From assembly GCA_965222605.1 (NCBI GenBank), contig OZ244960.1, positions 2,400,001 through 2,464,000 of the forward strand: DNA of 64,000 nt, written 5' to 3'. The translations under genes were made by a program, and so were the position numbers. Position 1 is the stretch's first letter. Each line of letters opens with the position of its first letter. The notes beneath the pieces are model-generated. The model saw only the letters and a list, made by a program, of their open reading frames with translations, ran no database searches and was not told the origin of the DNA. Positions 20,225-25,188 of the stretch are shown one piece after another. The DNA comes from Candidatus Latescibacterota bacterium (lineage in GTDB: Bacteria; Latescibacterota; UBA2968).

Positions 20225-20674
20225 CTACAACCTTCGACGCAACGCCATGCCATCGCTGGGAAAACGCTCGTCAAAGGTGTAGATCACGCTCGCACCATCT
20301 GTCTGAGCGGCTGCCCATATCATCGCGTCTGCAATAGACACCCTACCAGACGGTCGGCACATCCGCAGCCCCTCCAACACGCGATTCTTATCCATTGCAT
20401 AAGTGGCAATATTGTCTCGCTGAACGAGATCTATTAGCCGATCAACCGTAGTTTCCCTCGAAACCTGATAATGACTTCTCAAAACGTATGCCGTTTCGGT
20501 CAGTACGATGTCAGTAATCTGAAGATCGTCAACTTGATGTATAATTCGGACTGCCTCTGCAGCAGTTTCTGGAGGGCTGCCGGTCAGATATCGAACAACG
20601 ACGCTTGTATCCAAGAATCCTCTCAACTGTCCTTCTTTCTCATCCCCATCTTTTTCTTTCCTGATTATTTCCAT
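20225..20674 (-). CDS. vapC: PIN-domain toxin (VapC family)
   Basis: FLDTSVVVRYL, VLTE, SIADAMI, IYTFD acidic PIN residues; overlaps the upstream antitoxin gene. Confidence 0.85.
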   Translation of the reverse strand: MEIIRKEKDGDEKEGQLRGFLDTSVVVRYLTGSPPETAAEAVRIIHQVDDLQITDIVLTETAYVLRSHYQVSRETTVDRLIDLVQRDNIATYAMDKNRVLEGLRMCRPSGRVSIADAMIWAAAQTDGASVIYTFDERFPSDGMALRRRL

Positions 20675-20937
20675 TTATCAGCTTCTTCTTCAATGGCCTT
20701 TGCCCAGGCGTTTTCCTTTATCTTATGCCAATCCTTATCATCAAATGCGTTGTCTTCATTCACATACTCAGCAAGACTACCCTTTAAGGATTTGTTATGC
20801 TCCGGCGGAAAGAATTGAATTTCTATGCGATTATCCACCAAGCGCTGTAACGCAATCCACCCGGGTTCTATACCCAGTTGATCACGAAGTTCCTTTCTTA
20901 TTACAACCTCGCCCTTGCCCCCAACTTTATAAGTCAA
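20665..20937 (-). CDS. AbrB/MazE-type antitoxin
   Basis: KVGGKGEVVIRKELRDQLGIEPG, a swapped-hairpin AbrB motif, directly upstream of the PIN gene. Confidence 0.85.
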   Translation of the reverse strand: MTYKVGGKGEVVIRKELRDQLGIEPGWIALQRLVDNRIEIQFFPPEHNKSLKGSLAEYVNEDNAFDDKDWHKIKENAWAKAIEEEADKWK

Positions 20938-22757: not shown

Positions 22758-23144
22758 TCAATTTAGCTCACAAATATGCTCTCTCAACCATTCGACAAGT
22801 TGCTCGCGGGAAACTTCTCCTGATGCGACGCCCAAAATGATTTGTTCTTGAATATCTACGGTAGCATCAATTCTATATCCATTGAAAATCAAGAATACTT
22901 CCATTGCTGCATGCCCCACCCGTTTATTCCCATCTAAAAAGGGATGGTTCCGAATCACAGAAAAACACAAAGCCGCCGCCTTCTCTTCAACAGTAGGATA
23001 AAGGTCCTGTCCCCCAAACGTCATACGGGGTTGTGCGATGGCCGATTCCAATCCGCTATGATCACGCACTCCTGCAGATCCGCCACTTGTTTCAATAATA
23101 CGCCTGTGAAGTGCCATCACTGCATCCAAGCTGATATAATACAT
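22758..23144 (-). CDS. doc: Death-on-curing (Doc/Fic family) toxin
   Basis: GVRD...LESA, YPT..EKAAAL, NHPFLDGNKR (the NKR Doc-type motif). Its ATG overlaps the upstream stop (TGATG). Confidence 0.92.
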   Translation of the reverse strand: MYYISLDAVMALHRRIIETSGGSAGVRDHSGLESAIAQPRMTFGGQDLYPTVEEKAAALCFSVIRNHPFLDGNKRVGHAAMEVFLIFNGYRIDATVDIQEQIILGVASGEVSREQLVEWLREHICELN

Positions 23145-24238
23145 CAACTTAGCCTTTGGTAAAGTTCGCTATTCTTCTCAAGCACTTGTTCACAGATCTC
23201 CGCAAACCTCTGTTCCCGAAATACACCGTTTTGAAAAAAATTAATAAGGTCATCTTTTACCTGATAATACGATCCATAGCCCCCTGCTATCAATCCCAAA
23301 TGTTGACCAATGACAATACGTATGAGTTTGGGAACTACGGCAGCAACTATGTTGACGGTGTATCTTTCGGACTGCTCATCATCAAGTTCTTTTAGATTTG
23401 GTATCCGACCAGTGTGAGTCAGGACATTACGTACCCGGTCAACATATTGAACACGAGTCTTTTGATCAGGTGTTGGCGACGGGTCTATAATCTCAAGTGA
23501 TTCCAGAAGCGAAAACAATTTATCTAACAAAGATGGGCCACGATCAATCTGACCATATAGCAAATTTCTATACCGTTCCACTTGATCTGGTTGAAGTCCT
23601 GTTGTTTTTGTGAGAAGATCGCTTATCTCTCTTTTAAGTTTCTTACGGATAGGCTTGCTGACCTTTTCATAGACCATCTCATGCTGGTCGAGAATAATGT
23701 TGAGTGCTGTGCAGTACAACGCAGCGCGGGATTGCAAGAGGTTGGCGTTCATTGCCTCATTGTATAAGTGCAGGACAATGTGCAAATTTTTGGATACCAA
23801 GCACTCCCTATTTTGCCAGGCATGTGCTGCTGCAGGCAAGGTCTCAATTGGAGTCACTGCATAGCAGTCACCATATATATCAGGTCTATACCTTTCCTGG
23901 TACTCTCCTGTAACTACGCTTCTACCTGTCATAAAAGTGAGCAAATTGCATAAATCCCATAGTCCTCCATCGTCGGCTACCTTGTCGAGAAGAATACTTT
24001 TTTCTCCAGGCCCTTTCCAGGACACAGTTGCTGTGGCTTGCCAGGTACCTTTTTGTGTTGGCGAGCGTTGTAGCCCTGTTTCATTGAGGGTCAACATTGG
24101 AGGTTGAGGCAGTTGAGAAACTCTGGCATTGTAATCATCTGTGAGACGCACCTTAAGACAGCCGATACTACTCTCTGACGATGAAGGGCCGGGGCGTGAA
24201 TCGCCCATATAGAGATTGAAGAGGTCAATTGTTTTCAT
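23144..24238 (-). CDS. HEPN-motif (ApeA-like) protein with Phd-like C-terminal tail
   Basis: 364 aa from MKTIDLF (GAAGGA RBS); LLTFMTGR, RNVLTHTG (RxxxxH), C-terminus FAEICEQVLEKNSELYQRLS. Confidence 0.65.
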   Translation of the reverse strand: MKTIDLFNLYMGDSRPGPSSSESSIGCLKVRLTDDYNARVSQLPQPPMLTLNETGLQRSPTQKGTWQATATVSWKGPGEKSILLDKVADDGGLWDLCNLLTFMTGRSVVTGEYQERYRPDIYGDCYAVTPIETLPAAAHAWQNRECLVSKNLHIVLHLYNEAMNANLLQSRAALYCTALNIILDQHEMVYEKVSKPIRKKLKREISDLLTKTTGLQPDQVERYRNLLYGQIDRGPSLLDKLFSLLESLEIIDPSPTPDQKTRVQYVDRVRNVLTHTGRIPNLKELDDEQSERYTVNIVAAVVPKLIRIVIGQHLGLIAGGYGSYYQVKDDLINFFQNGVFREQRFAEICEQVLEKNSELYQRLS

Positions 24239-24305
24239 ATTTATTCCTTCTGGATGACTGGCGTTGTGCCTGCGGCGTGGCGGCTCAACACCATGCCGCA
24301 ATGAC

Positions 24306-24329
24306 GGGCGAGGCATGCCTCGCCCCTAC
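24306..24329 (-). repeat. GTAG-type REP palindrome
   Basis: GTAGGGGCGAGGCATGCCTCGCCC on the minus strand. Confidence 0.75.
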
Positions 24330-24384
24330 GCAGTTTTACCGCTCGAAACCTGCTATGGGTCACTGACCGCCTGCCTGCTGATTG

Positions 24385-25188
24385 CTACAAATTCTCAACC
24401 GCATAAACAGCTTTCAATATCTGTTCCTCCCCGACGGTTTTAGCCTTCGCATCAAAACCGAGCAACAGGGCAATATCGCAAATATTGTTTATATCTCGTG
24501 GAATACCATTGGACGCTTGATAGAGCGCATCGAGCGCGTCCTCGCCAAACAAGGACCGCTTGGCCCCCGCTTTTTCCAGGCGTGTTTGCACATACGCGTG
24601 GATTTCTTCGCGCTTAAACGGCGCGAGGTGATATTGGCGCGCGACCTGTTGCGCCAATGACTCAATGCCCTCGACCCGGTACTTGAGACCTGTCTGTCCA
24701 ATGAGGAGAAGGGTAAGAAAAAAACGACCGTTGCGTTGAAAACTGAACAGGGATTGCAACTCCTCAAATGTATTCTCATCCTCCAGAGCATCGGCATCAT
24801 CGACAATGACGACCGTATATTTGCCCGCATTGGCACTTTTGACAGCCTGGACCTCAAGTGCCCGTTGCAGGGCTGGTCTTGCGTCCGATTGGATATCAAC
24901 TCCCAATTGCCCCAGCATATCCCGAAGAAAGTCAATCGGCGAAAGACTGGGTCTATTTATAAGCGCGATTTCATACTGGTCTGATGACAGTTCATGGATG
25001 AGCATGCGACTCACAACGGTTTTGCCACAGCCCATGTCGCCCGTGAGCACGGCAGCCCCCATGCGAGTATTGATCGCGTAAAACATCTGCAATAGTGCTC
25101 TCTGGTGATCTACCGAAGAATAAAAAAAACGCGGATCCGGCACACTTTCAAACGGCAATTCTGTCAGATTCCAATATTCCTGGTACAC
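24385..25188 (-). CDS. ExeA/GspA-family AAA ATPase
   Basis: Y.EYWNL.ELPF..VPDPRFFY, GDMGCGKT, LLIGQ..L, SNGIPR.IN.ICD.AL. Walker B reads DDA rather than DEA. Confidence 0.85.
   Translation of the reverse strand: MYQEYWNLTELPFESVPDPRFFYSSVDHQRALLQMFYAINTRMGAAVLTGDMGCGKTVVSRMLIHELSSDQYEIALINRPSLSPIDFLRDMLGQLGVDIQSDARPALQRALEVQAVKSANAGKYTVVIVDDADALEDENTFEELQSLFSFQRNGRFFLTLLLIGQTGLKYRVEGIESLAQQVARQYHLAPFKREEIHAYVQTRLEKAGAKRSLFGEDALDALYQASNGIPRDINNICDIALLLGFDAKAKTVGEEQILKAVYAVENL

What the first reader, a model, noticed from the sequence alone, without database searches (positions are those of the whole stretch)
22758..24238. HEPN protein carrying a Phd-like antitoxin tail, coupled to a Doc toxin: candidate new two-toxin defence module
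Seen: doc has no small antitoxin upstream. That position holds a 364-aa ORF whose stop overlaps the doc start (TGATG). It contains RNVLTH (RxxxxH) and ends FAEICEQVLEKNSELYQRLS. Known: RxxxxH is the HEPN RNase signature (ApeA-like anti-phage proteins), and P1 Phd neutralises Doc with a C-terminal helix ending ...NKELVNR. From memory, many Doc-linked antitoxins end in F...VL.KN.ELY.RL. Inference: a HEPN nuclease has fused to the Doc-neutralising helix and replaced the DNA-binding half of the antitoxin. One protein would then be both effector or sensor and antitoxin, so that its activation or proteolysis releases Doc. I know of no described system with this layout.
Basis: partly seen in the sequence, partly recalled or inferred. 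Interest (0 to 1): 0.8.

Follow-up and report, generated by a model that had tools for sequence, protein, structure and literature searches.

The report
HEPN-like protein carrying Doc's antitoxin tail
A 364-residue protein related to ApeA-type HEPN anti-phage RNases ends in the short helix that small antitoxins use to block the Doc toxin and sits directly in front of an intact doc gene, so a likely nuclease appears to have taken over the antitoxin's job.

Summary
On the minus strand, a 364-aa ORF (23144-24238) ends in TGA, which overlaps the ATG of an intact doc gene (22758-23144).

- **The tail is a Doc-antitoxin tail.** The ORF's last 20 residues match the C-terminus of 63-71 aa ribbon-helix-helix (RHH) antitoxins. 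These antitoxins precede the closest Doc relatives in other Latescibacterota genomes (19 of 20 such loci). A profile built only from those small-antitoxin tails finds this ORF as its single hit in the whole genome (E 5e-5; next best 1.3).
- **Tail and Doc travel together.** Tail-bearing homologues have Doc next door in 10 of 11 genome loci. Tail-less homologues never do (0 of 13 loci) and end differently (0 of 125 carry the tail).
- **One fusion event fits the tree.** Docs linked to the long protein form a single clade (99/98) nested among RHH-linked Docs.
- **Binding is predicted.** A complex model places the tail over Doc's catalytic loop (0.91 against 0.01 for the best control). Phd-Doc complexes are already solved, so this shows likeness only.
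- **The body is probably HEPN.** R-N-x3-H is invariant in 103 sequences, and a 66%-identical homologue passes Pfam HEPN_Apea. The protein itself has no Pfam hit, and fold searches found no HEPN structure.

Nuclease activity, the trigger and Doc release are all inferred. The closest precedent is PanA_Phd-C:Doc, so I rate this a new variant of a known kind.

The parts
23144..24238 (-). Gene for the 364-aa ApeA-like HEPN protein with a Phd-C-type tail (stop codon included)
   Evidence: ORF. 86 homologues at 56-93% identity. AF2 model from 103 sequences has pLDDT 93.3 and pTM 0.89. It is the only copy of the family in its own genome.
23789..24238 (-). N-terminal alpha/beta domain (about residues 1-150), function unknown. 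Holds the family-wide conserved WDLC..LLTF.TGR stretch (G105 invariant, R106 in at least 90%).
   Evidence: Secondary structure. Invariant and near-invariant columns. No Pfam or PADLOC hit.
23219..23788 (-). Helical HEPN-like domain (about residues 151-340)
   Evidence: Pfam HEPN_Apea covers the equivalent residues 189-326 of the 66%-identical P0030 (28.2 bits, cut-off 24.4). 15 of 103 family members hit HEPN_Apea at E<=0.01. PADLOC Cas13-ApeA models PDLC01679 and PDLC01680 hit 5 and 3 of the 103 members.
23414..23431 (-). RNVLTH, the Rx4H HEPN-type motif (R270, N271, H275)
   Evidence: Read. R270, N271 and H275 are invariant in 103 sequences down to 17% identity. RN...H is present in 82 of 84 full-length distant homologues.
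23147..23206 (-). Phd-C-type Doc-neutralising tail, FAEICEQVLEKNSELYQRLS (residues 345-364)
   Evidence: Aligns with the tails of 11 RHH antitoxins; F, E-L-Y and R-L are invariant. It matches P1 Phd in the same register. It is the only genome-wide hit of a small-antitoxin tail HMM (E 5.1e-5). pLDDT drops to 63-72 in the monomer model. Residues 344-364 contact Doc in the complex model.
22758..23144 (-). doc, a 128-aa Doc-family toxin (stop codon included). Its ATG overlaps the stop of the upstream gene by one base.
   Evidence: Pfam Fic/DOC 6.4e-22, TIGR01550 4.8e-18. PDB Doc chains 9vzc, 3k33, 3dd7 and 3kh2.
22920..22946 (-). Doc catalytic motif HPFLDGNKR (H67-R75)
   Evidence: Read. P68, F69, G72, N73 and R75 are invariant, and H67, D71 and K74 are conserved in at least 90% of 23 Docs. 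G72, K74 and R75 are contacted by the tail in the complex model.
24239..24252 (-). Ribosome-binding site (GAAGGA) in front of the ATG at 24238
   Evidence: It is the only upstream feature conserved across 11 loci from two genomic contexts.
24385..25188 (-). Context, not part of the cassette: an AAA_22 ATPase gene directly upstream. It may be co-transcribed with the pair in this genus.
   Evidence: Pfam AAA_22 1.8e-17. Conserved upstream of the pair in 7 loci of the same genus (L001-L006, L008) but absent from L007 and L009-L011. The only strong promoter-like site on this strand lies at 25314-25285, upstream of the ATPase (11 of 12).

Best explanation
This is a type II toxin-antitoxin pair of the Phd/Doc kind in which the antitoxin has been rebuilt.

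The ancestral partner of this Doc lineage was a small RHH antitoxin of about 64 aa. Its last 20 or so residues formed the Doc-blocking helix. In one lineage that helix, together with the translationally coupled doc gene, became attached to the C-terminus of a stand-alone protein of about 350 aa. That protein belongs to an ApeA-like HEPN family otherwise found in defence and mobile-element contexts, and the helix replaced its native last 15 or so residues.

The resulting 364-aa protein holds Doc inactive. Its flexible tail lies across the catalytic loop of Doc, a kinase-type Fic protein whose P1 prototype phosphorylates EF-Tu.

- **Shown computationally:** tail homology, strict tail-Doc co-occurrence, a single origin on the Doc tree, intact catalytic motifs in both proteins, translational coupling, and a predicted tail-Doc interface.
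- **Inferred:** the body is an active, regulated RNase. Whatever activates, unfolds or degrades it during phage infection or stress also frees Doc, so RNA cleavage and translation arrest strike together. The RHH domain is gone and no conserved operator was found, so Phd-type autoregulation would no longer apply, and expression would depend on read-through from whatever lies upstream.
For: **1. Tail homology**
- 19 of 20 small ORFs directly upstream of Docs 55-73% identical to this one end in F-x6-VL-x-KN-x-ELY-x-RLS, for example FEHAAEHVLKKNRELYRRLS in L036. In all 19 the stop abuts the doc start.
- In the alignment of 4 long and 11 short proteins, F, E-L-Y and R-L are invariant.
- An HMM built from the 11 short tails alone was searched against all 85,933 six-frame open frames of at least 40 aa in the genome. 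It hits only this ORF (E 5.1e-5, 25.2 bits; next best E 1.3).
- P1 Phd (FASLFDTLDSTNKELVNR, GenBank M95666.1) matches in the same register at F, N, E-L and R.

**2. The short partners are true antitoxins**
- L049 passes Pfam RHH_1 (28.6 bits, cut-off 20.5). The other six scanned give only sub-threshold RHH, CopG or ParD hits.

**3. Co-occurrence**
- 10 of 11 genome loci of tail-bearing homologues have Doc starting at the stop codon.
- 0 of 13 metagenome loci of tail-less homologues have a Doc within 1.5 kb (best E 0.94).
- The tail motif is in 70 of 86 close homologues by a strict pattern. Seven more carry a variant or partial tail, and the other 9 are entries shorter than 351 aa.
- 0 of 125 distant homologues carry it. 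They end instead like P0087, FFNEGNWRGWKLEDRTFEEYFYE.

**4. Direction of dependence (sample of 151 genomes of the phylum)**
- 12 carry the family. 10 have the adjacent Doc, one keeps the intact long gene without Doc (G052 = L008), and one keeps only remnants of both (G018).
- None of the 10 Docs of this clade lacks the long gene.
- Antitoxin without toxin occurs, but toxin without antitoxin does not.

**5. Single origin**
- The 10 long-partner Docs form one clade (99/98) nested among RHH-partnered Docs; one change on the tree.

**6. Mobility as a unit**
- The pair sits between a GT2/AAA ATPase and PhyH genes in one genus, and between leuB/cimA and argJ in another family. DDE transposases lie beside it in L007 and L009.

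**7. Complex model (Doc + residues 325-364)**
- ipSAE 0.91, best of 3 controls 0.01. That mark was reached by 58 of 80 solved complexes and 2 of 110 mismatched pairs; these counts hold only roughly because my own alignments were used.
- The runs agree in at least 98% of contacts, and partner pLDDT is at least 69.
- Tail residues 344-364 touch Doc 72, 74-75, 78-87 and 96-104. The tightest pairs involve the conserved V352, N356, L359, Y360, R362 and L363.
- Phd-Doc complexes are solved, so the pass shows likeness only.

**8. Flexible tail**
- pLDDT is 63-72 for residues 341-364, against at least 84 for every 10-residue block before residue 341.
- A variable 11-16 aa insertion sits exactly at the junction in a subclade.

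**9. HEPN body**
- See the HEPN rows of the membership test.

**10. Defence or mobile context of tail-less relatives**
- Neighbours include AbiEii, a C5 methylase, Abi_C, and TrwC relaxase plus ArdC.
Against: - **No experiment of any kind.** Binding is a model, and the model may reflect memory of solved Phd-Doc complexes.
- **The HEPN assignment is not secured for this protein.** It has no HEPN hit in Pfam, NCBIfam or PADLOC at E<=1. Foldseek against PDB found nothing (best E 0.41) even with a pLDDT-93 model. The best BFVD hit is an unnamed protein at E 0.016. A PDB profile search returned 0 hits. hhalign against 7 canonical ApeA-like proteins of the same phylum gives probability 6% and E 0.006, although the RN..H motifs are in register.
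- **Weak link to defence here.** In this genome the pair lies among housekeeping-type genes, not in a defence island.
- **All fused examples come from one phylum.** They fall in two genera of the sample, so relatedness inflates the counts.
- **The 13 tail-less loci are not all independent.** L014, L015 and L018 are near-copies, L021 and L022 are identical, and several have short flanks.
- **The long protein can work without Doc.** G052 keeps the long gene after losing Doc, so coupled release is not required for its function.
- **No conserved promoter or operator was found**.
Confidence: 0.7

Rival explanations
1. Carrier or sensor only. The long protein is Doc's antitoxin, but its body is not a second toxin. 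It acts like the Panacea domain of PanA, as a stable scaffold or a trigger-sensing domain for the Phd-C tail. The only effector is then Doc.
For: - PanA_Phd-C:Doc shows that a globular non-DNA-binding domain can carry Phd-C. It also shows the tail alone on SUMO neutralises Doc (PMC10440598, passages).
- The HEPN assignment is weak for this protein.
- G052 keeps the long gene without Doc and without visible harm.
- ApeA itself is a ligand-activated protein with a sensing pocket outside the catalytic centre (preprint 10.64898/2026.01.26.701840, abstract and section 7).
Against: - R270, N271 and H275 are invariant across 103 sequences down to 17% identity. That is hard to explain without catalysis.
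- Tail-less relatives are stand-alone genes next to Abi, R-M and conjugation genes, as expected for single-gene effectors.
Confidence: 0.2
2. Retention lock. Doc and the C-terminal tail serve mainly to keep the HEPN gene itself. Any frameshift, nonsense mutation or deletion in the costly HEPN gene removes the C-terminal tail and frees Doc, which kills the mutant. The pair would then be an addiction device that guards a defence gene, not a coordinated double strike.
For: - The neutralising element is at the extreme C-terminus of a 364-codon gene and is translationally coupled to doc.
- The cassette moves as a unit between chromosomal sites.
- Addiction is the classical role of P1 phd/doc (established knowledge; the GenBank M95666.1 notes read 'inhibition of Doc (antidote)' and 'Host killing (toxin)').
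Against: - Decay still happens. G018 lost the first 219 codons of the long gene and most of Doc.
- G052 lost Doc cleanly.
- This reading is not exclusive of the best explanation.
Confidence: 0.15
3. Reverse polarity. Doc is the regulator and the HEPN protein is the toxin. Doc would phosphorylate or AMPylate the HEPN protein to keep it silent, as MNT does to HepT, and the tail would only be a docking site.
For: - HEPN-MNT systems neutralise a HEPN RNase by covalent modification. I know this only from the reference list of PMC10440598 (ref. 70) and from recall.
- Fic/Doc enzymes modify proteins (PMC3710099, passage).
Against: - 13 of 13 tail-less relatives live without any Doc.
- G052 retains an intact long gene after Doc loss.
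- The tail is homologous to an element whose known role is to inhibit Doc.
- In the model the tail covers the catalytic loop and is not presented as a substrate.
- The Docs of this clade are 55-73% identical to Docs that have ordinary RHH antitoxins.
Confidence: 0.04
4. Artefact: a misassembly, a chance ORF, or a chance resemblance of the tail.
For: None found.
Against: - 86 homologous proteins.
- 10 independent assemblies with the same junction.
- A genome-wide single hit of the tail HMM.
- A high-confidence fold.
Confidence: 0.01

Closest known systems
Phd/Doc of phage P1 (type II toxin-antitoxin)
   Same: - Doc-family toxin with the H-x-F-x-D-[AG]-N-K-R loop.
- The antitoxin gene is upstream and overlaps the toxin start; P1 phd ends and doc begins at the same base.
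- The C-terminal helix has the same F...N.EL..R register.
- The tail is predicted to sit on the active site.
   Different: - The antitoxin is 364 aa instead of 73.
- It has no Phd/YefM or other DNA-binding domain.
- Its body is a HEPN-like protein.
- No operator or own promoter is conserved.
- Doc is only 30% identical to P1 Doc.
RHH-Doc pairs of Latescibacterota (the sister loci L034-L054)
   Same: - Docs are 55-73% identical.
- The tails are the same, and so is the stop/start junction.
- On the Doc tree, this is the stock within which the fused clade nests.
   Different: The partner is a 63-71 aa RHH protein, and these pairs lie at other chromosomal sites.
PanA_Phd-C:Doc of Corynebacterium doosanense (Panacea antitoxins; Ernits et al. 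2023, PMC10440598)
   Same: A Doc-neutralising Phd-C element sits at the C-terminus of a globular domain that does not bind DNA and is not itself needed for neutralisation. The authors suggest a sensory role for that domain (passages).
   Different: The carrier here is not Panacea (no Pfam hit). It belongs to a family whose members match HEPN RNase models and keep an invariant RNxxxH, so the carrier may itself be an effector.
ApeA, a single-gene HEPN anti-phage system (Gao 2020 by recall; preprint 10.64898/2026.01.26.701840)
   Same: - Relatives hit Pfam HEPN_Apea and PADLOC Cas13-ApeA models.
- There is a non-HEPN N-terminal part plus a C-terminal helical domain with the catalytic motif.
- Tail-less relatives are stand-alone genes in defence or mobile contexts.
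   Different: - 364 aa against about 580 aa with three domains in Ec2ApeA (section 7).
- The canonical ApeA-like proteins of this phylum are 457-534 aa.
- hhalign to them is weak.
- This protein has no PADLOC hit.
- ApeA has no partner toxin.
RloC/PrrC-like ABC-HEPN neighbourhoods with DOC toxins (Anantharaman et al. 2013, PMC3710099)
   Same: A HEPN protein and a Doc-superfamily toxin are encoded together. The authors read this as multi-level defence acting on RNA and protein (passage).
   Different: Those are separate genes inside R-M operons, with an ABC-ATPase-fused HEPN of another family. The passages I read describe no antitoxin tail on the HEPN protein.

Membership tests
Doc toxin (Fic/Doc, TIGR01550 DOC_P1) | Profile match above the curated cut-off | tested here: met
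   Pfam PF02661 78.6 bits (cut-off 24). TIGR01550 65.5 bits (cut-off 38.65), covering 1-122 of 122.
Doc toxin (Fic/Doc, TIGR01550 DOC_P1) | Doc-type catalytic loop H-x-F-x-[DN]-[AG]-N-K-R (K in place of the Fic G) | tested here: met
   HPFLDGNKR at residues 67-75 aligns with the corresponding stretch of P1 Doc in 3K33 and is conserved in 23 Docs. The motif definition itself is recalled.
Doc toxin (Fic/Doc, TIGR01550 DOC_P1) | Toxicity through EF-Tu phosphorylation | not testable with these tools
   Needs expression and a kinase assay.
Type II Phd/Doc-type toxin-antitoxin pair | C-terminal Doc-neutralising element (Phd-C) on the upstream gene product | tested here: met
   homology; predicted interface: 0.91 against 0.01 for the best control.
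Type II Phd/Doc-type toxin-antitoxin pair | Antitoxin upstream of, and translationally coupled to, the toxin | tested here: met
   TGATG overlap. The same junction is found in all 10 fused loci and in 19 RHH loci.
Type II Phd/Doc-type toxin-antitoxin pair | Small antitoxin with an N-terminal DNA-binding domain that autoregulates the operon | tested here: not met
   364 aa with no DNA-binding family in Pfam or NCBIfam. No conserved upstream operator.
Type II Phd/Doc-type toxin-antitoxin pair | Antitoxin neutralises the toxin in vivo and is the more labile partner | not testable with these tools
   Needs rescue and stability assays.
HEPN superfamily | Conserved R-x(4-6)-H motif | tested here: met
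   R270, N271 and H275 are invariant in 103 sequences. RN...H is present in 82 of 84 full-length distant homologues.
HEPN superfamily | Profile match to a HEPN family | tested here: inconclusive
   This protein has none at E<=1. P0030 (66% identical) and P0085 pass HEPN_Apea (28.2 and 28.8 bits, cut-off 24.4). 15 of 103 members match at E<=0.01; other HEPN models hit 1-2 members each. Orthologues in G116 and G134 score 21.8 and 21.3 bits, just under the cut-off.
HEPN superfamily | Four-helix HEPN core fold resembling solved HEPN structures | tested here: inconclusive
ApeA defence system | Match to ApeA models, and the ApeA three-domain architecture of about 450-580 aa | tested here: not met
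   PADLOC returned 0 families for this protein. It is 364 aa, against 457-534 aa for canonical ApeA-like proteins of the phylum and a HEPN_ApeA region at 335-583 in Ec2ApeA. hhalign probability is 6%. I file it as ApeA-like, not as ApeA.
ApeA defence system | tRNA anticodon cleavage, oligomeric ring, ligand activation, phage protection | not testable with these tools
   Biochemistry and phage assays are needed.
PanA (Panacea) antitoxins | Panacea domain | tested here: not met
   No Pfam family at E<=1 other than two chance-level hits. That the Panacea domain has a Pfam model which would have been detected is recalled.

The most novel reading that the evidence does not exclude
This is a two-effector abortive-infection switch built from one polypeptide. 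The ApeA-like body senses infection, by ligand binding or oligomerisation as in ApeA. The same conformational change both opens its RNase site and pulls the C-terminal helix off Doc. RNA cleavage and EF-Tu phosphorylation then fire together, and a phage inhibitor or protease that attacks the HEPN protein would itself release Doc (a guard-type decoy). The body would thus be effector, sensor and antitoxin at once, a layout I did not find described (searches; listings only).
Probability: 0.25. Interest if true: 0.8.

Novelty: new variant of a known kind. Interest (0 to 1): 0.62.

Why it matters
Antitoxins are known to be modular, with a linear neutralising element joined to an exchangeable domain. 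So far the exchangeable domains were DNA binders or the Panacea domain.

Here the carrier belongs to a family with the hallmarks of a toxic defence RNase. Comparative data also capture the swap itself. Sister lineages hold the same Doc clade with its RHH partner, and the junction, a variable linker and later decay products are all visible.

If the body is active, the pair is a natural example of two toxins wired through one protein. It would offer a direct test of whether TA neutralising tails are used to chain defence effectors together. It also gives a handle on an uncharacterised family of about 350-aa proteins with an invariant RNxxxH (128 representative clusters at 50% identity).

Tried and rejected
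- **First AF2 model.** Built from 26 close homologues, it was poor (pLDDT 63.5), and its Foldseek search was meaningless. I replaced it with the 103-sequence model.
- **PDB sequence searches.** The family profile A2 gave 0 hits. The 40-aa tail alone gave only chance hits and did not find Phd; the query is too short.
- **ESM Atlas.** The nearest clusters are unnamed hypothetical proteins. One cluster at rank 23 has MauJ in 49% of its members. No structure search was possible.
- **Looking for other long carriers of the tail.** I queried the 63-aa antitoxin of L036 with lengths 'longer'. Only one 123-aa protein came back among 42 candidates. A 20-residue match cannot reach E<=10 in that database, so this says nothing about other carriers. 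One search was an out-of-range parameter, corrected.
- **RNA evidence.** Four metatranscriptome runs were laid, as contigs only. Pieces cover the ATPase gene, the 3' part of doc (one contig at about 90% identity, so from a relative) and the repeat at 24290-24330. None lies on the body of the long gene. This decides nothing about expression or co-transcription.
- **Earlier notes of this scan.** Nothing to show.
- **Promoter scan.** No promoter-like site lies between the ATPase and the long gene on the coding strand. These are consensus matches only.
- **Considered and rejected.**
  - The longer 390-aa reading from the ATG at 24316: homologues start at MKT.DLF, and only the RBS before 24238 is conserved.
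  - A misassembly.
  - A chance tail match.
Full report
**What is in the sequence**

On the minus strand, an ORF of 364 codons runs from 24238 to 23147 and stops with TGA at 23146-23144. The ATG of the next gene lies at 23144-23142, so the two genes share one base (TGATG).

The downstream gene (128 aa, ending at 22758) is a Doc-family toxin. It matches Pfam Fic/DOC at E 6.4e-22 and NCBIfam TIGR01550 DOC_P1 at E 4.8e-18 over the whole model. It also matches Doc chains in the PDB: 9vzc at 2.5e-15 and P1 Doc 3k33 at 1.1e-7. Its loop HPFLDGNKR (residues 67-75) aligns with the catalytic stretch of P1 Doc and is conserved in 23 relatives.

No small ORF lies between or beside the two genes.

**The long protein is a real, conserved protein**

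A word-indexed search returned 86 proteins at 56-93% identity. An exhaustive HMMER search of 1.84 billion representatives returned 128 clusters at E<=0.001, reaching down to about 20% identity.

With 103 of these sequences, AlphaFold2 gives a confident model: pLDDT 93.3 and pTM 0.89. It has a mixed alpha/beta N-terminal part (about residues 1-150) and a helical C-terminal part. Confidence is at least 84 in every 10-residue block up to residue 340, then drops to 63-72 for residues 341-364. An earlier model built from 26 close sequences was poor.

The protein itself matches no family in Pfam, NCBIfam or PADLOC beyond chance-level hits.

**Is the body a HEPN domain?**

Evidence for:
- Across 103 sequences, the only invariant residues are G105, R270, N271 and H275. 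RN...H is present in 82 of 84 full-length distant homologues.
- P0030, which is 66% identical to this protein, passes the Pfam gathering score for HEPN_Apea (28.2 bits against 24.4). The match covers its residues 189-326 and profile positions 11-132 of 136. P0085 also passes.
- 15 of 103 members match HEPN_Apea at E<=0.01. Two match HEPN_RiboL-PSP and one matches HEPN_Swt1.
- In PADLOC, the two Cas13-ApeA models are hit by 5 and 3 members. Single members hit Csx1/Csm6, RTasHEPN, Cas13d and Cas13a models.
- A six-frame Pfam search places orthologues in G116 and G134 just under the cut-off, at 21.8 and 21.3 bits.

Evidence against, or missing:
- Foldseek with the good model found no PDB chain at E<=0.001 (best 0.41). 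In BFVD it found only an unnamed protein at E 0.016.
- A PDB profile search found nothing.
- hhalign against seven canonical ApeA-like proteins of the same phylum (457-534 aa) gives probability 6% and E 0.006. The RN..H motifs and the N-terminal conserved stretch are in register.

I therefore call the body an ApeA-like HEPN protein with moderate confidence. I do not file it as ApeA, which is larger and has three domains (preprint 10.64898/2026.01.26.701840, abstract and section 7 read).

**The tail is a Doc-antitoxin tail**

This is the strongest result. I searched 151 genomes of the window's phylum with Doc: 64 have a match, and the 30 best loci carry Docs 55-100% identical to this one.
- In 10 of the 30 loci, the upstream gene is the long protein.
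- In the other 20, it is a small ORF. Nineteen of these are intact proteins of 63-71 aa, and one (L051) is disrupted.
- One of seven small proteins scanned passes Pfam RHH_1 (L049, 28.6 bits against 20.5). The others give sub-threshold RHH, CopG or ParD hits.

All 19 intact small proteins end in the same element as the long protein, for example FEHAAEHVLKKNRELYRRLS in L036. In all 19, the stop abuts the doc start. In a joint alignment, F, E-L-Y and R-L are invariant.

As a chance control, I built an HMM from the 11 small-antitoxin tails alone. I searched it against all 85,933 six-frame open frames of at least 40 aa in the window's own 6.3-Mb genome. The long ORF is the only hit (E 5.1e-5); the next best has E 1.3.

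P1 Phd, taken from GenBank M95666.1, ends FASLFDTLDSTNKELVNR.

**Tail and Doc go together**

- Of 11 genome loci encoding tail-bearing homologues (all Latescibacterota), 10 have Doc starting at the stop codon.
- The distant homologues lack the tail. None of 125 carries the motif, and they end like P0087, FFNEGNWRGWKLEDRTFEEYFYE.
- None of 13 metagenome loci of such proteins has a Doc within 1.5 kb (best blastp E 0.94).

Two caveats apply to those 13 loci. Some are near-copies of each other (L014, L015 and L018; L021 and L022). Five have short flanks.

Among the 86 close homologues:
- 70 match a strict tail pattern.
- Seven more carry a variant or partial tail.
- The remaining nine are entries shorter than 351 aa, cut before or inside the tail.

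A subclade has an 11-16 aa insertion exactly between the globular body and the tail. This fits a flexible linker at the fusion point.

**History**

A maximum-likelihood tree of 23 Docs puts the 10 long-partner Docs in one clade (ultrafast bootstrap 99, SH-aLRT 98). That clade is nested among RHH-partnered Docs, so one change of partner suffices.

The pair sits in two different chromosomal settings:
- Between a GT2 glycosyltransferase/AAA_22 ATPase and two PhyH genes in the window's genus (L001-L006, L008).
- Between leuB/cimA and argJ in another family (L007, L009-L011), with DDE transposases next to it in L007 and L009.

Only the ribosome-binding site and the start codon are conserved upstream. 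The cassette therefore moved as two genes, without a promoter or operator of its own.

In the same 151-genome sample, 12 genomes carry the family:
- 10 have the adjacent Doc.
- One (G052 = L008) has an intact long gene, but doc is cut after about five codons and replaced by a repeat.
- One (G018) has only the last 145 codons of the long gene and a Doc remnant at the syntenic site.

No Doc of this clade was found without the long gene. That is the asymmetry expected if the long protein is the antitoxin.

**Predicted complex**

I folded Doc (alignment of 23 sequences) with residues 325-364 of the long protein. The score was 0.91, and the best of three controls was 0.01. The mark was reached by 58 of 80 solved complexes and by 2 of 110 mismatched pairs; these counts hold only roughly because my own alignments were used. 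The runs agree in at least 98% of contacts, and the partner's pLDDT is at least 69.

Residues 344-364 contact Doc residues 8-22, 72, 74-75, 78-87 and 96-104. The contacts include G72, K74 and R75 of the catalytic loop. The tightest contacts come from the conserved V352, N356, L359, Y360, R362 and L363.

Phd-Doc complexes have been solved (3k33, 3dd7 and 3kh2 appear). The pass therefore shows likeness to those structures, not that this copy binds.

**How it most likely works**

*Shown by computation.* The long protein carries a bona fide Phd-C-type element, is translated together with an intact Doc, and is the only candidate antitoxin at the locus.

*Inferred.*
- It sequesters Doc through the tail.
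- Its body is an active, regulated RNase of the ApeA kind. The tail-less relatives sit beside AbiEii, a C5 methylase, Abi_C, and TrwC relaxase plus ArdC.
- Events that activate or destroy the body also release Doc.

With the RHH domain gone, Phd-type autoregulation by DNA binding would no longer apply. In this genome, the only strong promoter-like site on the strand lies upstream of the neighbouring ATPase gene (25314-25285).

The rivals are listed separately: the body is only a carrier or sensor (as proposed for Panacea), Doc acts as a retention lock for the HEPN gene, or Doc regulates the HEPN protein. The first two are compatible with the antitoxin role. The third is disfavoured by the Doc-less relatives and by G052.

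**Comparison with what is known**

The principle is established. A linear neutralising element can be moved between carrier domains. Ernits et al. 2023 (PMC10440598, passages read) showed that C. doosanense PanA neutralises Doc through a C-terminal Phd-C element, that the Panacea domain is dispensable, and that SUMO-Phd-C suffices.

Anantharaman et al. 2013 (PMC3710099, passages read) noted RloC-like ABC-HEPN genes in neighbourhoods with DOC toxins. They also defined the ApeA HEPN family.

I found no paper describing a HEPN or ApeA-like protein that carries a Doc-neutralising tail. I ran four full-text searches:
- 'ApeA' + 'HEPN': 20 papers.
- 'Doc toxin' + 'antitoxin' + 'HEPN' + 'fusion': 7 papers.
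- 'Phd-C' + 'Doc': 359 papers, mostly irrelevant.
- 'death on curing' + 'HEPN': 9 papers.

I judged these from the listings only. Supplementary datasets such as the NetFlax node tables were closed and might list such a pair.

**Verdict**

The fusion is real, conserved and well explained as an antitoxin-domain swap. The second-toxin and defence readings are plausible but untested. I rate it a new variant of a known kind, with interest 0.62.

Noticed in passing
window 24306-24325: A perfect 20-bp palindrome, GGGCGAGGCATGCCTCGCCC, lies between the ATPase gene and the long gene. It occurs 20 times in the 6.3-Mb genome, 12 of them within 2.61-2.67 Mb. RNA-library contigs from other places pile up on it. 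It looks like a REP-like dispersed repeat.
   Followed up: partly
window 20225-20937 (minus strand): A second toxin-antitoxin-like pair: a PIN-domain protein (149 aa, Pfam PIN 1.4e-16) overlaps a 90-aa upstream ORF that has no Pfam hit. The pair is also present downstream of the PhyH genes in L002.
   Followed up: partly
L008 5068-5330 (= G052): doc is lost after about five codons and replaced by a stretch of roughly 250 bp. That stretch recurs, inverted, elsewhere in L005 and L006 (81-88% identity), so it is a small mobile repeat. The long gene and its tail stay intact.
   Followed up: partly
L056 1832-2375 (G018): At the syntenic site, only codons 220-364 of the long gene survive, with an in-frame stop. 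Next to them lies a Doc remnant at 39% identity. This is a decayed copy of the cassette.
   Followed up: yes
L057-L064 (other Latescibacterota genomes): Canonical ApeA-like proteins of 457-534 aa with strong HEPN_Apea matches (down to E 1e-35) occur in the same phylum. One is in G083, which also carries the fused pair.
   Followed up: partly
P0002: The 86%-identical homologue is labelled Gemmatimonadetes bacterium by NCBI, whereas all 11 genome loci are labelled Latescibacterota. This could be a binning or labelling difference, or a transfer.
   Followed up: no
A1 columns 417-433 (P0004, P0007, P0016, P0018; L026-L028, L033): A subclade carries an 11-16 residue insertion between the body and the tail. 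It looks like a linker of variable length at the fusion junction.
   Followed up: no
L051 and its doc (G096): The small antitoxin ORF is disrupted, and the adjacent Doc has changes inside the catalytic loop (H to L, K to E). This is a decaying RHH-Doc pair.
   Followed up: no
family-wide: One of 103 members hits Pfam MauJ (E 0.0019). An ESM Atlas neighbour cluster at rank 23 has MauJ in 49% of its members. This suggests a possible distant link between MauJ-type proteins and this family.
   Followed up: no
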